From NCBI GenBank assembly GCA_037379345.1, contig CM074520.1, positions 21,617,488-21,681,487 of the forward strand: a stretch of DNA of 64,000 nucleotides, read 5' to 3'. Below, piece by piece: positions 1 through 24,000 of the stretch. Each line of letters begins with the position of its first letter. Positions within the stretch are counted from its first letter, which is position 1. Source of the stretch: Perna viridis. Lineage: Eukaryota. Made by a program: the position numbers.

Positions 1-3000
1 CATTATCTTTAAAAAAAGAAAGCCGACGCAGTAAAATTTGTTTTTTTTTTTACTTATAATTTTCTACAGTTCATTCAGAAATTTGCACATGGCACACAAT
101 TTCAATTTTCTATATACTCTTTTTTTGAACACAACTAAGTTATCAGTATTTGGCCAATCGGGAAACAGAATTGTGATCAGATGACTCGCATTTCCAAGGA
201 TAATAAGCAAAACGATACCGACTGCGTCGGAAAAATAACTTTTTTTATACTAGACATATTATAGTGACATGCTATCATTGCTTCTTAATCAAGTCCAACT
301 GTGATTGATGATTTTTCTCTGATCATGCATTATGGAGGTTTAATGTTATTCAAAGATAAACCGAGAGAACAAATGAACTTTGATAAGCCAATAAGAATTT
401 GAGAATGAGGATGATACTCTTGCCTTGTTCAATAGTAAAAACTGTTGACCTAGTAAACAGTGCAGGTCTTCAGGAGTTATAATTTAAAATGTTACACTTG
501 ATCAAAAATAAAAACAAATGTATACTTAACTATAATAAATGTTTTTTAAATTTGTGATTCTAACCGTCTCTCTTTGTGTGTGGGACTGTTTGGAACTTAA
601 TTTCTGTTATATGTTCTGTAACCAATCATCACGTTCACTTTACATTATAAAAAAAGCCCTTTATTATTATGCCATACTGCTGAGCACAGTTATGTTTGAC
701 AGCTTATTTTTTGTAAAGATTTTTTTAACCAATGGTTTATATACATATTTCATGTCACTGTTTGCACTGATCTGAGAAGTCACTTGATAAATTCACATAA
801 CCTTCCCATTAGTAAGAAGTACAAACATTATCAAATGCTCTCTTTGAATAGTAATGTCATATGCATATTGCTTTTACAGATATAAAGAAAAATGTGAACA
901 CCAAATTATCTGCATGCAGTATGAAAAGCAAAAAGCTGCGGAAAATGTCAAAAAGTTATTTAATTGTCAGTTTGAAAGGGACGATGCTAAAGAAAAGGTC
1001 AAAAGTTTACAAAGTGATGCAAGCTATCTTAGAAACAAGTAAGTCAGCGTTACTTTCGAATTTGTTAAGAAATTTGAGAATAACAGTTACATATACCTGA
1101 TGTGGCCAACCTTCTTACCTGACTTGTATATATAGACGGTGAAGTGTAGCTTGTTTAGCGATTAGAATGAATGTTTCGCCCCTTCATATGTTTTTATTTT
1201 TGTTTTTGTTTTTATTTTCTGTAATTAAGTTTTCAGTTTATTTCATGCAGTAACACATGAAAGGAAAGTAGAAGAGATTGTGGTTAGGTCCTACATGCAG
1301 TGCCTGAATAGAACAAAAATACAGGTTTTATATTGGTAACATTGTCAGGAGGTATAAAGTGATCATGGCGACTGTGCTTTCCTCTGTCCCCTCCTTTTTG
1401 TTACATTTTCTGTGCAACTACTAATCTGATAGCCACTTAATATTTTGACAGAAGCTTTATATTATTGTGCCACATTTTGGGACATGATTTTAGACTCTTA
1501 ACAACATCAACTTTGGGTTATAAGGCTTCCTTCATAATTGGGGTTTATGGTTTGAATACAAAACTTTTGTTACAGTTGTTTCTCTAACTACTTATCACAG
1601 CAACTTGATATTTTGACACAAGCTTTATAAAAGTATGCCATATCTTATTTCTAACTCAGGCAACATCAAGTTACTGTTTGACAACTTTTTTTTACCATTT
1701 GGTTTGAATACAGTTATTCTATTAAATACCAGGAAAACTATGAACAATTNNNNNNNNNNNNNNNNNNNNNNNNNNNNNNNNNNNNNNNNNNNNNNNNNNN
1801 NNNNNNNNNNNNNNNNNNNNNNNNNNNNNNNNNNNNNNNNNNNNNNNNNNNNNNNNNNNNNNNNNNNNNNNNNNNNNNNGTTTTGCCCTGAGTAATTCAA
1901 AACTTATCTTTCATAGCATTTTAGTTAAATAGGTAAATTCCATGTTCATTTCTACAGAGTAACTTGTCAACTTTTTCTTACTTAAAGAACAAGGAGAGAG
2001 TCTCATGGCAATGAGAGAATCAATAGAGATATATAAAAGAGCTAATAACAACCAACAGAAATACATTTTAGAATTACAAAACATATGTGTAACATTGTTA
2101 TTGTCTTCATGATATATACTGTTAATGAATACTGGACATTCATGCAGAGGTTGATAAAAGGGGAATTGAGTTTTTAGTGGATGCTAAGAGCTCATTGAAA
2201 ACATTCATTTAAGTTCACCCACCCACTAAAAATACAATATTCCAGATTTGTGAACTATACACTTTCTAATTTAATTCGATATTAAAGCATTAACCTACTT
2301 GTTTTAAGTAGAAACGTGATGTTAATGCATGAGGCTATTTTTTGAAGTGACTATTGTCCTGTCCTGTATTTTACTAATACATCACATTGCTACAATAACA
2401 GTGTATTACATGTACATTTTTAATATTGTGTTGTGCATGATATTTTGAAAATTAACAGGGCCAGTCAACATGAGGATGAATTTGTGAAAGATGCAAAAAC
2501 AGCCATTGTTCACTACACAGCTAAAACCAAAAAGTACAAGAAATTAAGTAAAAAAGCAAAATCTGACAATTATAGATTAAAAATGGAAAAAGAGGAGTTA
2601 CAAACTCTTGTCCAAAAACTGAGGACTATTTCTAAGGAGGAGAAGGAGAAACATGAAAATGAAATTGACTCATACAATATTAAGATAAAACCATTAGAAC
2701 TATATAAAGTAAATTTCATCAAGACAATTATTGATGACGTCCCGTCCCTTGAAACATTACATGAAATGTTGCCCAGTTTGAGAATCATACTGTCATGGGA
2801 ATGGTAGTAATGGTTTTCATCAATGTTTTTTTACGAAAATTATCACAATTTTAAGCTGAAAATTCAAATAATTTCCAAATGCTTATAACCCCCCTCCCTT
2901 TGCCACGAGCACATAATTTTGGTTGATATTAGATTCTTTATGAACTATTGAGAGGTTCTTGCAGAAGGTGGTAGACTAACATCTACATGATCTGTGGTCC

Positions 3001-21000: not shown

Positions 21001-24000
21001 AAATAATGTAATCCAGGGAAAAAAAAAAGACATGGAAAACAGACATACACAACAAAGAACATTAAGTAACTCAAATTATACATACGAAGTAACAAAAGCA
21101 AATGAGCAACTCGGAATCCACTAAAAACTGGGAACATGGACCAGGTGCACCGGTAGGGTAAGCCTCCTCTGCTTTTCTAGAAACACCCACCGAGTTGCTC
21201 ATAAAAAGTCAAGTCCGAGGTAGACACACGAGGAAAAGGAAAACTATGACCCGTTGAATAAATCAGTTTTCATGGTGCAGATGGATACACCATAACGATC
21301 CACGACTTCATGATGATGACCATAAAACTGCTGTAGTGATGACTTCAATCTTGTAGCAACATAACCTTGTTCCAGAAGCCTATTTGTTAGAGTTCTAGTG
21401 TGATACAAAAAGTATGCGTAGTTTAGGCAAGCAAGCTCTGGCACAACGTATGAGTTGTAATATGAACACTCAGTCGCAGGTGCTGAAGGGATATCTGTAA
21501 ACTCTATTATCTGCTGTCGAACCTGTATAGGGACTTTTTACAATTTTATTGCTACTTTTGGGCACAGTAAATGATTAGTATATTATACAATTTAAAGGTC
21601 CACACGGTTACAAGGACAATGTCATACAATCATGTCAAGGTCACAAGGAGTAATCAATGGAAGCAAGATTCTAACGGAAATCAAAGGAATGTAATTCAGG
21701 GACAAATAACATACATGGAAATCAAACAAACACAACAGGAACATAACATAAACAAAATAGTACACACAAAAGTAAATGATTGGAATCAACTAAAAACTGG
21801 GAGCATGGACCAGGTGTAATAATTGCATATCTGTTTAAAAGTAACTCTTTAAAACGACTAAATGTCTATAGCGTATGATCAAGGTGGTCGGACTCTTGTA
21901 AACCTGAGTTCAAAGTGTAAAGCCCATCAAGAGGGTCATTTTAAACCTGCATGTATTTCTAATCGTTTTCTTGGCATCAAGGTCTGAACTTTCAGTAAGA
22001 AATTTCTTGCATTTTGTGATCTTTAACGTTGGATGAAAATGAAAGATCGCATGAACTGAAGGTAATTGATGACTGTACATGTCTTTATGATATCCAGTTC
22101 TAGAAATAACAATTATAAAAAAAAATAAGTATGATATGTAAAGCATATTACCCTGAAAACCGTTGATAAAATTTACATTTTTATGTTTATCTATAACATC
22201 AAAAAACCGCCAATAAAAGAGAGGGAACTTCTAAAAATGATGATGAAATCCTTACTATGGTCGTCCTGTACAACTTCAGAAGAGGGTTATTCGCTGGTTT
22301 ACACTTGGAAATGATATCTTGAAAATTGACGATGGGAGCCCATGACTTAATATTTAATGCTTTCACGAACAGTTTTGTCTTATATTTATTCCTTCATTGT
22401 CTATAGTTGAACTTTTGTTAAACTTGTAACACAAAACTATTAGACCTTTATCCACTGTTTTGCTGTGCCTTTCGTTCCATTTTAGTTGTTTCGGTATATC
22501 TTTTCATTGTGTTCACAATATATTGAATCTTACTGTTATAGAAAGACGCGTATGTTCTTATGTTACTACATCAAAATTCTTTAAAAAAAATTTTTTTTTT
22601 AGGAATTGTACCACCTGCACGACTGTGAATAAGGATAAACGACACACGTAAGTAATGTTAATTCGAATAACCACATGTTAGCTGATATTTTAAAATTCTG
22701 CATTTTTGCTGTTTCACGTTATACCTTCAATTTAATAATAAATTCATAAAAATTAAGTTCTTGCTTTTATCATTCTAGAACTGTTTATAACATCACTGCA
22801 CAAGCTGTGAGTTTTCCATCACAATGCAATTTCAACAGCAATGAGGTCGCTGATAAGTTTGCATTAGGAATAGTTGGTGGACCAAAAAACGAGCAGTTAG
22901 AGATCGAAGGCAATGGAGGAGAATCACTTATTTCAAGTTCCTAAAGTATGATAAAAACATACATTTTTGATCTATAATCAAGCCATTGTAATTTTATTTT
23001 ATATAGGACAACATTTGTCATACAAATAATGTATATTGGTTTGTTCATGGTCGTTTTTAATTTGAAAGGTCGGCGCTAAATATATTTTACTACGTAGTTT
23101 TGCCATTTTTAACTATTTATCAAAATAGTGCATGTGCTTTTCGAGAGTTTACATTGCAGACCGTATACGTAGCTATACACATGGGCTCACCAGGATCACT
23201 TGTTTTGAATGAAATAAAAACGAGAGACACTCACAAGTATTGTATGGGAAAATTTGTGTGTTATTCCTAAAAAAAGCTGCTTTATGGATTTGTTAAAACA
23301 ATTATGGAACTTGTATTAGATAATATAATTGTGCAACTGTTAGTTGTTTTGTTTATATAACTATAAATTCAATCTTGTCAAGACATTCACATCATTACTT
23401 AAATAGATGTTAAGAGGTACCAACGTTAAATGAGCAACCCTCCTTAACTACTGAACAGACATTTATCAACAAAAACATTGTTATAAGGTATAGGCATTAT
23501 GAATTTGCTGTTGTGATTCTGTAAAATAACTCATTTGTGGTTTCCATAAGGGTCGTAGGTACTTGTACTAAGGACAGTAAAGGGACCCACCTCTTAACTA
23601 CTCGATAGGTTTTTTATCAACTTTTAGGGAATGTTTATGAGGCATTGGCATTGTACATCTATTTATTGAATGTAGATGAGATACATTGGAATAAGAAGAC
23701 TATGCATATTAAAATCAAGCTTCTGGTTAGTTAACCAGATGGTTACATTAACATTTTATGATCTAACAGTAATTCTAGAAAGGATTAGAAACAAATGATG
23801 TAAATGTTTACGGTGTGATATTTTTGCTATTTCCACAGTGATTAGATAACCGCTAAAAGTAAAACTCGTGAAATTTATTTGTAACCAATTTTGTAATCAA
23901 TTTTTGAATCGGAGGTAATTTATACACGCAAAAAATGTTCAGAATGACAGATTCCGCAAAAATAAGCAACCGTTGAAATCGACATGTTTACTGTTTACCA

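What the first reader, a model, noticed from the sequence alone, without database searches (positions are those of the whole stretch)
880..22944. Unrecognised coiled-coil gene built from symmetric phase-2 exon cassettes
Seen: internal exons of 159, 96, 96, 93, 171, 102 and 45 nt (plus one of uncertain end at 2459) are multiples of 3 and enter and exit in phase 2. The paralogue's exons (90, 108, 324, 96, and a 95-nt broken one) follow the same rule. Established: phase 2 is generally the rarest intron phase, and symmetric exons can be skipped, duplicated or shuffled without frameshift. Inference: this is a modular, lineage-specific gene family able to vary rod length and the number of Cys modules by splicing or exon copy number. 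It could be a diversifying immune or scaffold adaptor family. I do not recognise the protein, and the ORF track misses most of these exons.
[Added by the scan's program, not by the reader: the finding's places include an assembly gap (unread letters, written N; its length is only estimated) at 1750 to 1879, 15195 to 15362. Whether the letters on both sides are continuous or in frame is not known: test that first.]
Basis: partly seen in the sequence, partly recalled or inferred. Interest (0 to 1): 0.72.

Follow-up and report, generated by a model that had tools for sequence, protein, structure and literature searches.

The report
Orphan coiled-coil gene, all phase-2 introns
This looks like a real but unannotated, lineage-restricted gene pair for a helical, probably dimeric rod protein whose exons can all be dropped or repeated without breaking the reading frame; one copy is damaged, and nothing ties it to immunity.

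Summary
The exon lengths, AG/GT borders and phase-2 entry and exit hold for 7 internal exons of gene 1 and 3 of the paralogue. I found one more such exon (18716-18823, 108 nt). The paralogue's 90-nt exon needs a GC donor. The "95-nt broken" exon was not located.

The uncertain exon at 2459 is explained. Gene 1 has a ~304-bp deletion that removed the exon's last 76 nt and its donor. The substitute donor is phase 0, so this copy stays in frame only if that exon is skipped; otherwise it is a pseudogene.

Exons A-C are coding: paralogue dN/dS is 0.39, against 0.73-1.09 in introns, and all exon indels are multiples of 3. A third copy of exon B exists in a public protein set. Exons D-H have coding-like composition and chain in frame. 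They have no homologue, and they join A-C only across an assembly gap.

Exon B' is predicted helical and pairs as a parallel dimer in a model. No Pfam, PDB or large-library match names the protein. "Diversifying immune adaptor" has no support. All-phase-2 exon cassettes are already known from LRR gene families. The window does not look human. The spliced protein was never joined or searched.

The parts
880..1038 (+). Gene 1 exon A, 159 nt, phase 2 in and out. Holds a C-x5-C pair conserved in the paralogue.
   Evidence: Acceptor at the 96.8th and donor at the 99.4th percentile of all AG/GT sites. Homologous to A' (z 11.5).
1750..1879 (.). Assembly gap 1, inside the A-B intron.
   Evidence: Its flanks are colinear with the paralogue's A'-B' intron. 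No exon-like piece lies in the matching paralogue stretch.
2459..2708 (+). Gene 1 exon B, truncated to 250 nt. Entered in phase 2; the only good donor (GTAAAT at 2709) is phase 0.
   Evidence: Homology 2361-2709 = 52325-52669 (85%), then 2712-2783 = 52974-53045 (68%, E 2e-6). This implies a ~304-bp deletion. P0001 and B' carry the full exon.
3882..3977 (+). Exon C1, 96 nt, phase 2-2, CxxC followed by a charged stretch.
   Evidence: Homologous to C' (z 11.5). Weak acceptor (61.7th percentile).
4108..4200 (+). Decayed copy of exon C (approximate bounds): acceptor AG lost, 2-nt insertion, stops.
4976..5071 (+). Exon C2, identical to C1. Part of a tandem duplication, 3351-4177 vs 4443-5271 (96.4% over 829 nt).
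5202..5296 (+). Second decayed copy of exon C (approximate bounds).
15195..15362 (.). Assembly gap 2, 24 nt upstream of exon D. It is the only link between exons A-C and exons D-H.
   Evidence: The left flank 14986-15194 is a truncated copy of the interspersed repeat.
15387..15479 (+). Exon D, 93 nt, phase 2-2.
   Evidence: Acceptor at the 99.5th percentile. Composition coding-like. No homologue in the window.
16951..17121 (+). Exon E, 171 nt, phase 2-2, predicted helical.
   Evidence: AF2 single-sequence model: helices 11-41 and 44-55, mean pLDDT 87.8. No homologue found.
18716..18823 (+). New candidate exon X, 108 nt, phase 2-2, polar and low in hydrophobic residues.
   Evidence: T-rich tract before the AG, donor CAG|GTTAGT. 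It is the 1 of 17 unclaimed 2-2 candidates that passes the composition filter. Also.
19686..19787 (+). Exon F, 102 nt, phase 2-2, highly charged (52% D/E/K/R).
22603..22647 (+). Exon G, 45 nt, phase 2-2, holds a CxxC.
22779..22944 (+). Terminal coding piece H, entered in phase 2, stop TAA at 22942-22944.
   Evidence: An AATAAA lies at 23213, but that motif is too common here to count as evidence.
46718..46807 (+). Paralogue upstream exon with an in-frame ATG at 46722. Phase-2 exit needs the GC donor at 46808, or the weak GT at 46778.
47838..47945 (+). Paralogue exon A', 108 nt, phase 2-2.
52422..52745 (+). Paralogue exon B', 324 nt, phase 2-2. Predicted as two long helices that pair as a parallel dimer.
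55787..55882 (+). Paralogue exon C', 96 nt, phase 2-2, CxxC conserved.

Best explanation
This is a real, unannotated, lineage-restricted protein-coding gene family. Two copies lie on the + strand of the window and a third appears in a public protein set. The N-terminal half (exons A, B, C) encodes a charged helical rod that most likely pairs as a parallel, in-register two-stranded coiled coil. It carries conserved cysteine pairs: C-x5-C in A and CxxC in C.

If the scaffold is right, it continues through two helical exons (D, E), a charged and probably disordered linker (X, F), and a short C-terminal part with another CxxC (G, H).

Every intron sits after the second base of a codon and every internal exon is a multiple of three. 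Any exon can therefore be lost, repeated or skipped without a frameshift. The DNA shows that this has happened: exon C was duplicated twice and two copies have decayed, and exons A and B differ between copies by in-frame indels.

Gene 1 in this assembly has lost the end of exon B and its donor. It can stay in frame only by skipping B (A to C1 gives a sense codon); otherwise it is a pseudogene.

Shown: exon borders, phases, the paralogy, the deletion and purifying selection on A-C. Inferred: dimeric rod, a metal or disulphide role for the cysteines, D-H belonging to the same gene, and any expression.
For: - Borders and phases.
- Junction codons are all sense codons, including for the exon-skipped joins tried (13 in gene 1, 3 in the paralogue).
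- Purifying selection: pooled dN/dS for A, B, C against A', B', C' is 0.39 over 143 codons (Fisher p 2e-4). The two wrong frames give 0.55 and 1.26, and four intron alignments give 0.73-1.09.
- Exon indels between copies are 3 nt and 51 nt. P0001 aligns with gaps of 1 and 2 residues in the paralogue's row within the exon. The intron just upstream of B has a 1-nt indel.
- Composition of all claimed exons is extreme against about 1,110 random ORFs. Only 18 of 1109 null ORFs pass the joint filter.
- Third copy: P0001 is 78% identical to B', E 6e-36, and is one of only 2 hits in 1.84 billion representatives.
- Fold of B': AF2 gives helices 3-54 and 58-104, pLDDT 84.6.
- Pairing of B': two copies score 0.55 against a best control of 0.00 of 3 controls. 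The tool's mark was reached by 21 of 30 proteins solved as pairs of one chain and 0 of 23 solved as single chains; on eukaryotes by 17 of 29 and 0 of 30. Runs agree in at least 95% of contacts and the partner pLDDT is 87. Contacts are residue i to residue i with 3-4 spacing.
- Heptad test on B': 81 of 2000 shuffles reach the observed value.
- Cysteine pairs are conserved in A/A' and C/C'.
Against: - No transcript evidence of any kind was available.
- Exon nucleotide identity between the copies (86%, 84%, 68%) is no higher than that of flanking introns (89%, 80%, 67-69%).
- D-H have no homologue in the window. Exon E has none in the protein collection at either length range.
- D-H are linked to A-C only through gap 2.
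- 2-2 candidate exons are common by chance: 36 on the + strand and 31 on the - strand.
- Acceptors of C1, C2 and B' are weak (58th-62nd percentile).
- The heptad test is not significant for 10 of 12 exon peptides; D, E, X and H score below their shuffle means.
- P0001 includes translated intron flanks on both sides. It is a genomic ORF, not a transcript product.
- Splice-site weights in my scripts were recalled consensus values, not trained on this organism.
- The AF2 models had no random-ORF control.
Confidence: 0.55

Rival explanations
1. Both copies in the window are decaying relics. The family was once coding, but gene 1 (exon B deleted, decayed C copies, repeat-filled introns) and the apparently 3'-less paralogue are now pseudogenes.
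For: A ~304-bp deletion removed the exon B end and its donor. Two decayed exon C copies are present. Exon identity is no higher than intron identity. Introns carry interspersed repeat copies and a 4-kb inverted repeat. No D-H homologues follow C' within the 8 kb left in the window.
Against: dN/dS is 0.39 in the true frame only. All four paralogue exons and all other gene 1 exons are open with intact splice sites. Gene 1's C2-D intron is 10.3 kb, so the paralogue's 3' exons may simply lie beyond position 64000.
Confidence: 0.2
2. There are two separate units. Exons A-C and exons D-H belong to different genes, or to different places in the genome, brought together by the scaffold join at 15195-15362.
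For: Gap 2 is flanked on the left by a truncated repeat copy, a typical contig break. The paralogue shows A'-C' but no D-H. D holds an internal ATG at 15400, so a transcript with an untranslated first exon could start there. The heptad signal is confined to B/B'.
Against: D has one of the strongest acceptors in the window (99.5th percentile), so it is an internal exon that needs upstream exons on this strand. The phase leaving C equals the phase entering D, and the junction codon is a sense codon. Of 13 ATG-first candidates with a phase-2 donor between C2 and D, only 2 pass the composition filter; one is a decayed exon C copy and the other a 15-residue piece inside the intron's inverted repeat.
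Confidence: 0.15
3. It is a member of a known, conserved family that is too diverged or too low in complexity to be recognised exon by exon.
For: Searches were made on single exons of 30-107 residues only, which costs sensitivity. The joined protein was not searched. The language-model look-up places B' next to mixed coiled-coil clusters (TACC_C, HOOK, DUF3496; scores 0.93-0.96).
Against: No Pfam family reaches its cut-off. phmmer over 1.84 billion representatives gives only P0001 and one spurious repeat protein. PDB sequences give nothing below E 0.07. The Atlas neighbours belong to several unrelated families, as expected for a generic coiled coil.
Confidence: 0.07
4. It is not a gene at all: the pieces are chance open frames with chance AG/GT borders in AT-rich DNA.
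For: Chance 2-2 candidates are plentiful (36 and 31 per strand). There is no external homologue for D-H.
Against: A-C are conserved in frame in two or three copies, with dN/dS 0.39 and only in-frame indels. All exons have extreme composition. The four long coding-like candidates between 15387 and 19787 on the + strand (D, E, X, F) are all of class 2-2, while those on the - strand are of mixed classes.
Confidence: 0.03

Closest known systems
Phase-2 exon-cassette LRR gene families: Tetrahymena 90-bp-exon LRR genes, brown-alga ROCO 72-bp LRR exons, gonadotrophin receptor LRR exons
   Same: Runs of exons that are multiples of three, each flanked by phase-2 introns on both sides, so that units can be added, lost or skipped in frame. 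There are signs of exon copy-number change. Seen as passages of PMC6564038 and PMC11378527.
   Different: In those families the exons have one exact length and are homologous repeats of one motif, in families of hundreds to thousands. Here lengths run from 45 to 324 nt. Exons show no detectable similarity to each other apart from the exon C copies. No LRR or other Pfam domain is found. Only three family members are known.
Generic two-stranded parallel coiled-coil rods (the language-model neighbours were TACC C-terminal, HOOK and DUF3496 clusters)
   Same: Exon B' has long predicted helices, a heptad-like contact pattern and a predicted in-register parallel dimer.
   Different: No sequence homology to any of them. 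The neighbours belong to unrelated families, so the likeness is of kind, not of descent.
Rad50-type zinc hook (CxxC embedded in a coiled coil; recalled, not tested)
   Same: A CxxC conserved between the copies sits directly next to a charged helical stretch.
   Different: No Pfam match to any zinc-hook family. The predicted dimer is parallel and was made for exon B' only. Metal binding was not modelled.

Membership tests
Phase-2 exon-cassette repeat genes (Tetrahymena / brown-alga LRR type) | Internal exons flanked on both sides by phase-2 introns | tested here: met
The eighth, exon B, is entered in phase 2 but now has only a phase-0 donor.
Phase-2 exon-cassette repeat genes (Tetrahymena / brown-alga LRR type) | Exons of one exact length (90 or 72 bp) | tested here: not met
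   Lengths are 45, 93, 96, 102, 108, 159, 171 and 324 nt.
Phase-2 exon-cassette repeat genes (Tetrahymena / brown-alga LRR type) | Exons are homologous copies of one repeat unit | tested here: not met
   Of 78 exon pairs, only the 3 paralogous pairs stand out. The best non-paralogous pairs were reached by 1-2 of 300 shuffles, which is the level expected from testing 78 pairs. Only exon C has extra copies.
Phase-2 exon-cassette repeat genes (Tetrahymena / brown-alga LRR type) | Leucine-rich repeat motif | tested here: not met
   No LRR family among the Pfam results for 12 exon peptides.
Parallel two-stranded coiled coil | Heptad periodicity of hydrophobic residues | tested here: inconclusive
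   B' is reached by 81 of 2000 shuffles and B by 197 of 2000. The other 10 exon peptides are not significant. The test is a crude single-register one.
Parallel two-stranded coiled coil | Long uninterrupted helices | tested here: met
   AF2 on B' gives helices 3-54 and 58-104; on E, helices 11-41 and 44-55. These are single-sequence models without a random-ORF control.
Parallel two-stranded coiled coil | Self-association in register | tested here: met
   Model only: score 0.55 against best control 0.00. The mark was reached by 21 of 30 solved one-chain pairs and 0 of 23 single chains; on eukaryotes 17 of 29 and 0 of 30. Contacts are i to i. This supports pairing but does not show it.
NEMO/optineurin-type immune adaptors (coiled coil plus C-terminal zinc finger; definition recalled) | Recognisable ubiquitin-binding coiled-coil domain or C-terminal CCHC finger | tested here: not met
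   No such Pfam family is listed for any exon, even at E up to 1. By my reading, the G/H cysteines do not show the recalled finger spacing.
Rad50-type zinc hook (definition recalled) | CxxC at the apex of an antiparallel coiled coil, binding zinc between two chains | not tested
   A CxxC is present and conserved, but no model with metal was run and there is no Pfam match.

The most novel reading that the evidence does not exclude
A young animal-lineage gene family has evolved, or kept, a strict all-phase-2 architecture in a non-repetitive coiled-coil protein. Rod length and the number of CxxC modules are tuned by exon gain, loss and skipping. This would be a coiled-coil counterpart of the phase-2 LRR cassette families. 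On this reading, gene 1's loss of the exon B donor is tolerated precisely because skipping B keeps the frame.
Probability: 0.15. Interest if true: 0.6.

Novelty: new variant of a known kind. Interest (0 to 1): 0.4.

Why it matters
If transcripts confirm the model, about ten introns in a row share phase 2. In human genes 21.07% of introns are phase 2 (PMC3632108, passage seen). Independent draws at that rate would give ten in a row about once in ten million.

My own reasoning is that a lysine-, glutamate- and glutamine-rich sequence should favour phase 0, because exon-end AG falls at the end of AAG, GAG and CAG codons. Composition therefore does not explain the bias.

The locus would be a compact case for asking whether uniform intron phase is kept by selection for in-frame exon skipping and copy-number change, or is a fossil of old exon duplication. 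It also shows how ORF-based and homology-based annotation miss short-exon orphan genes.

If transcripts do not confirm it, it is one more decaying duplicate in repeat-rich DNA.

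Tried and rejected
- Pfam on 12 exon peptides and on P0001: nothing reaches a curated cut-off.
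- Word-index protein search: B' against longer proteins, E against longer proteins, and E against similar lengths. All found nothing.
- PDB sequence search with B', E and H: the best hit was E 0.07 for a V-ATPase subunit, which I take as chance.
- ESM Atlas: H gave scores of 0.80 or less. B' gave mixed coiled-coil clusters. I used this as a description only.
- Rfam at gathering thresholds over the whole window: 0 matches.
P0001's source and any name stay unknown, and I did not pursue it.
- A second C-like exon in the paralogue near 57,000 was rejected on alignment.
- The poly(A) signal after H was rejected as evidence: AATAAA occurs 229 times in the window.
- The idea that the exons descend from one another by duplication was not supported.
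- An alternative first coding exon between C2 and D: none was convincing.
- Not run: genome contigs, because it holds only bacteria and archaea.
The Tetrahymena paper's supplementary tables were therefore not seen.
- The spliced protein or CDS was never assembled, folded or searched. Only single exons were used.

Full report
**What kind of DNA this is**

The window has about 32% G+C throughout and is full of interspersed repeats. It holds a reverse-transcriptase remnant on the minus strand (RVT_1, E 3.4e-11). Rfam found no RNA family. Coding sequence comes in short exons with AG/GT borders. It looks like an AT-rich, repeat-rich eukaryote, probably an invertebrate animal; that last point is my impression and was not tested.

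**The assembly gaps (tested first, as asked)**

The window has two N runs, 1750-1879 and 15195-15362. Both fall in proposed introns, so no reading frame crosses an N.

- **Gap 1.** Both flanks match the paralogue's A'-B' intron in the same order and strand: 340-1444 = 47350-48267, 1694-1740 = 50321-50365, 2032-2175 = 50522-50676 and 2171-2460 = 52151-52423 (the translated comparison agrees). The matching paralogue stretch holds no exon-like piece. Exons A and B are therefore truly adjacent, and the gap hides only intron.
- **Gap 2.** The left flank (14986-15194) is a truncated copy of the interspersed repeat. The right flank is 24 bases followed by exon D. Nothing in the paralogue corresponds to D-H. 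Continuity here could not be tested, and exons D-H are tied to exons A-C only by this scaffold join.

**The observation**

Read directly from the sequence and checked by script:

| Exon | Coordinates | Length (nt) |
|---|---|---|
| A | 880-1038 | 159 |
| C1 | 3882-3977 | 96 |
| C2 | 4976-5071 | 96 |
| D | 15387-15479 | 93 |
| E | 16951-17121 | 171 |
| F | 19686-19787 | 102 |
| G | 22603-22647 | 45 |
| H (terminal, stop at 22942-22944) | 22779-22944 | 166 |
| A' (paralogue) | 47838-47945 | 108 |
| B' (paralogue) | 52422-52745 | 324 |
| C' (paralogue) | 55787-55882 | 96 |

- Each internal exon is preceded by AG, followed by GT, is a multiple of three, and is entered and left in phase 2. H is entered in phase 2.
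- The paralogue's 90-nt piece (46718-46807) needs a GC donor. It contains an in-frame ATG at 46722 just after a stop, so it may be the first coding exon.
- The junction codons are all sense codons, also for the exon-skipped joins I tried (13 joins in gene 1, 3 in the paralogue).
A C-like stretch near 57,000 did not align.

**The exon with the uncertain end**

- DNA homology between gene 1 and the paralogue runs 2361-2709 = 52325-52669 at 85%. It then jumps to 2712-2783 = 52974-53045 (68%, E 2e-6).
- Gene 1 therefore lacks about 304 bp that in the paralogue hold the last 76 nt of exon B, its donor and 228 nt of intron.
- The junction happens to read GTAAAT, a usable donor, but in phase 0. That breaks the frame into exon C1.
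- The one outside relative, P0001, is closest to gene 1's exon B yet carries the full-length exon like B'.
- Gene 1 in this assembly is thus damaged. It stays in frame only if B is skipped (A to C1 gives AAG); otherwise it is a pseudogene.

**Is it more than chance?**

A deliberately permissive scan counted pieces with any AG and GT above low score thresholds, 45-330 nt long and open in some frame.

- It finds 274 candidate exon-frames on the + strand and 312 on the - strand. They are spread almost evenly over the nine phase classes, with 36 and 31 of class 2-2.
- A 2-2 piece is therefore nothing special in this DNA, and a chain could be picked by eye from noise.
- The splice-site weights I used are recalled consensus values, not trained on this organism.

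Three things lift the claimed exons above that background.

1. **Composition.**
   - I compared them with about 1,110 random open frames of 30 codons or more.
   - G at codon position 1 lies at the 88th-99th percentile in 11 of the 12 exons scored. The exception is the 14-codon exon G, at the 31st percentile.
   - All 12 lie at or below the 16th percentile for F/Y/W/I/C/L content.
   - Exon X was scored and passes the joint filter there.
   - Only 18 of 1109 null frames pass a joint filter.
   - Of the 17 unclaimed 2-2 candidates, only the new exon X passes.
2. **Phase class.** When all phases are allowed and the same filter is applied, the long candidates between 15387 and 19787 on the + strand are D, E, X and F, all of class 2-2. 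The - strand gives a similar number of pieces, but of mixed classes and mostly inside repeats.
3. **Site strength.** Donors are at the 94th-99.9th percentile for 9 of the 10 complete internal exons scored; C' is at the 84.5th. Acceptors of C1, C2 and B' are weak, at the 58th-62nd percentile.

**Evidence that exons A-C are coding**

- The two copies are true paralogues, with introns also alignable at 67-89%.
- Pooled over 143 codons, dN/dS is 0.39 (Fisher p 2e-4). The same alignments read in the two wrong frames give 0.55 and 1.26. Four intron alignments give 0.73-1.09 in all three frames.
- Indels inside exons are 3 nt (B against B') and 51 nt (A against A'). P0001 aligns to B' with gaps of one and two residues within the exon. 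The intron just upstream of B has a 1-nt indel.
- Against this, exon nucleotide identity is no higher than intron identity, so the constraint is mild or recent.
- P0001 contains translated intron on both sides of the exon. It is a genomic open frame, not proof of expression.

**Exon copy number**

- Exon C lies in a tandem duplication, 3351-4177 against 4443-5271, 96.4% identical over 829 nt. The exon itself is identical in both copies.
- Each copy is followed about 130 nt downstream by an older, decayed copy. These have lost the acceptor AG, carry a 2-nt insertion and contain stops.
- The paralogue has one exon C.
- So the number of CxxC modules has changed repeatedly at the DNA level.
- A haplotype-duplication artefact cannot be excluded for the young duplication.

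**What the protein looks like (exon by exon)**

- **Database searches.** No Pfam family reaches its cut-off. PDB sequences give nothing significant. phmmer of B' against 1.84 billion representatives returns P0001 and one spurious repeat protein. The word-index searches return nothing.
- **Exon B', fold.** It folds as two long helices, 3-54 and 58-104, with mean pLDDT 84.6.
- **Exon B', pairing.**
  - Two copies of B' score 0.55 against 0.00 for the best of three controls.
  - The tool's mark was reached by 21 of 30 proteins solved as one-chain pairs and 0 of 23 solved as single chains. On eukaryotes the counts were 17 of 29 and 0 of 30.
  - The runs agree in at least 95% of contacts and the partner pLDDT is 87.
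  - Contacts run residue i to residue i with 3-4 spacing, which is a parallel in-register pair.
  - This supports pairing but does not show it. Coiled coils may also pass from likeness to solved structures.
- **Exon E.** It is predicted helical (11-41 and 44-55, pLDDT 87.8).
- **Heptad test.** A crude single-register test is suggestive only for B' (81 of 2000) and B (197 of 2000). D, E, X and H are below their shuffle means.
- **Scope of the label.** "Coiled coil" is a fair description of the B region, not shown for the rest.
- **Exons X and F.** X is polar and poor in hydrophobic residues. F is 52% D/E/K/R. Both look like a linker.
- **Cysteine pairs.** They are conserved between copies: C-x5-C in A/A' and CxxC in C/C'. 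G holds another CxxC. Whether they bind metal or form disulphides was not tested.
- **Inter-exon similarity.** The exons are not detectably related to each other. Of 78 pairs, only the three paralogous pairs stand out.

**Most likely reading**

This is a young, lineage-restricted gene family for a dimeric helical rod with cysteine modules, built entirely of symmetric phase-2 exons. One damaged copy (gene 1) and one copy whose 3' end may lie outside the window are present here. Gene 1's C2-D intron is 10.3 kb, whereas only 8 kb follow C'. Shown, inferred and open points are set out in the explanation sections. The main rivals are decay of both copies, and a false join at gap 2.

**Comparison with what is known**

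- Phase 2 is the rarest phase in human genes: 46.28%, 32.65% and 21.07% for phases 0, 1 and 2 (PMC3632108, passage seen).
- Runs of phase-2 symmetric exons are known from Tetrahymena LRR genes with exact 90-bp exons (PMC6564038, passages seen). They are also known from brown-alga ROCO genes with 72-bp LRR exons and from gonadotrophin receptors (PMC11378527, passages seen).
- This locus shares the phase rule and the signs of exon copy-number change. It fails the other defining features of those families: one exon length, homologous repeat units and the LRR motif.
- One search for the same architecture in coiled-coil genes listed 9 papers. I opened two of them and both concern LRR genes; I did not read the others, and one search is not proof of absence.
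- I therefore rate it a new variant of a known kind, of moderate interest, resting on transcript confirmation.

**Left out**

The spliced coding sequence and protein were never joined, so full-length profile searches and full-length folding remain undone.

Noticed in passing
window 6749-10908 and 11457-14543: A large inverted repeat with arms of about 3-4 kb at 77-81% identity, centred near 11,180, inside the 10.3-kb C2-D intron. The arms carry mirror-image short tandem arrays (157 bp x2.7 at 8136-8554; 152 bp x1.8 at 14052-14323). It could be a foldback-type element or an inverted segmental duplication.
   Followed up: partly
window 3013-3349, 14986-15194(-), 17382-17606(-), 18224-18595, 20952-21492, 43822-44096(-), 49455-49945(-), 55286-55677(-), 61371-61582: An interspersed repeat family of roughly 200-530 bp, 74-95% identical between copies, scattered through the introns of both gene copies. 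One copy is cut off by assembly gap 2. No Pfam hit for its open frames and no Rfam match.
   Followed up: partly
window 24792-26072; also 30659-30928(-): A tandem array of a 411-bp unit, 3.1 copies, 97% matches, in the most G+C-rich part of the window (39%). A partial inverted copy at 86-87% lies about 4.6 kb downstream. The two flank the retrotransposon remnant.
   Followed up: no
window about 26385-29400, minus strand: A broken non-LTR retrotransposon. The frame at 27280-27762 matches reverse transcriptase RVT_1 (E 3.4e-11). Neighbouring frames are interrupted by stops.
   Followed up: partly
window 44240-44386, + strand: A coding-like open piece with AG/GT borders, rich in Ser, Gly and Lys, about 2.3 kb upstream of the paralogue's ATG exon. 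Its phases do not fit the phase-2 chain, and its relation to the paralogue is unknown.
   Followed up: no
window 52661-52745 against 52422-52500: The last third of exon B' weakly resembles the first third of exon B (30% over 33 residues, E 0.39). This hints at an old internal duplication within that exon but is not significant.
   Followed up: partly
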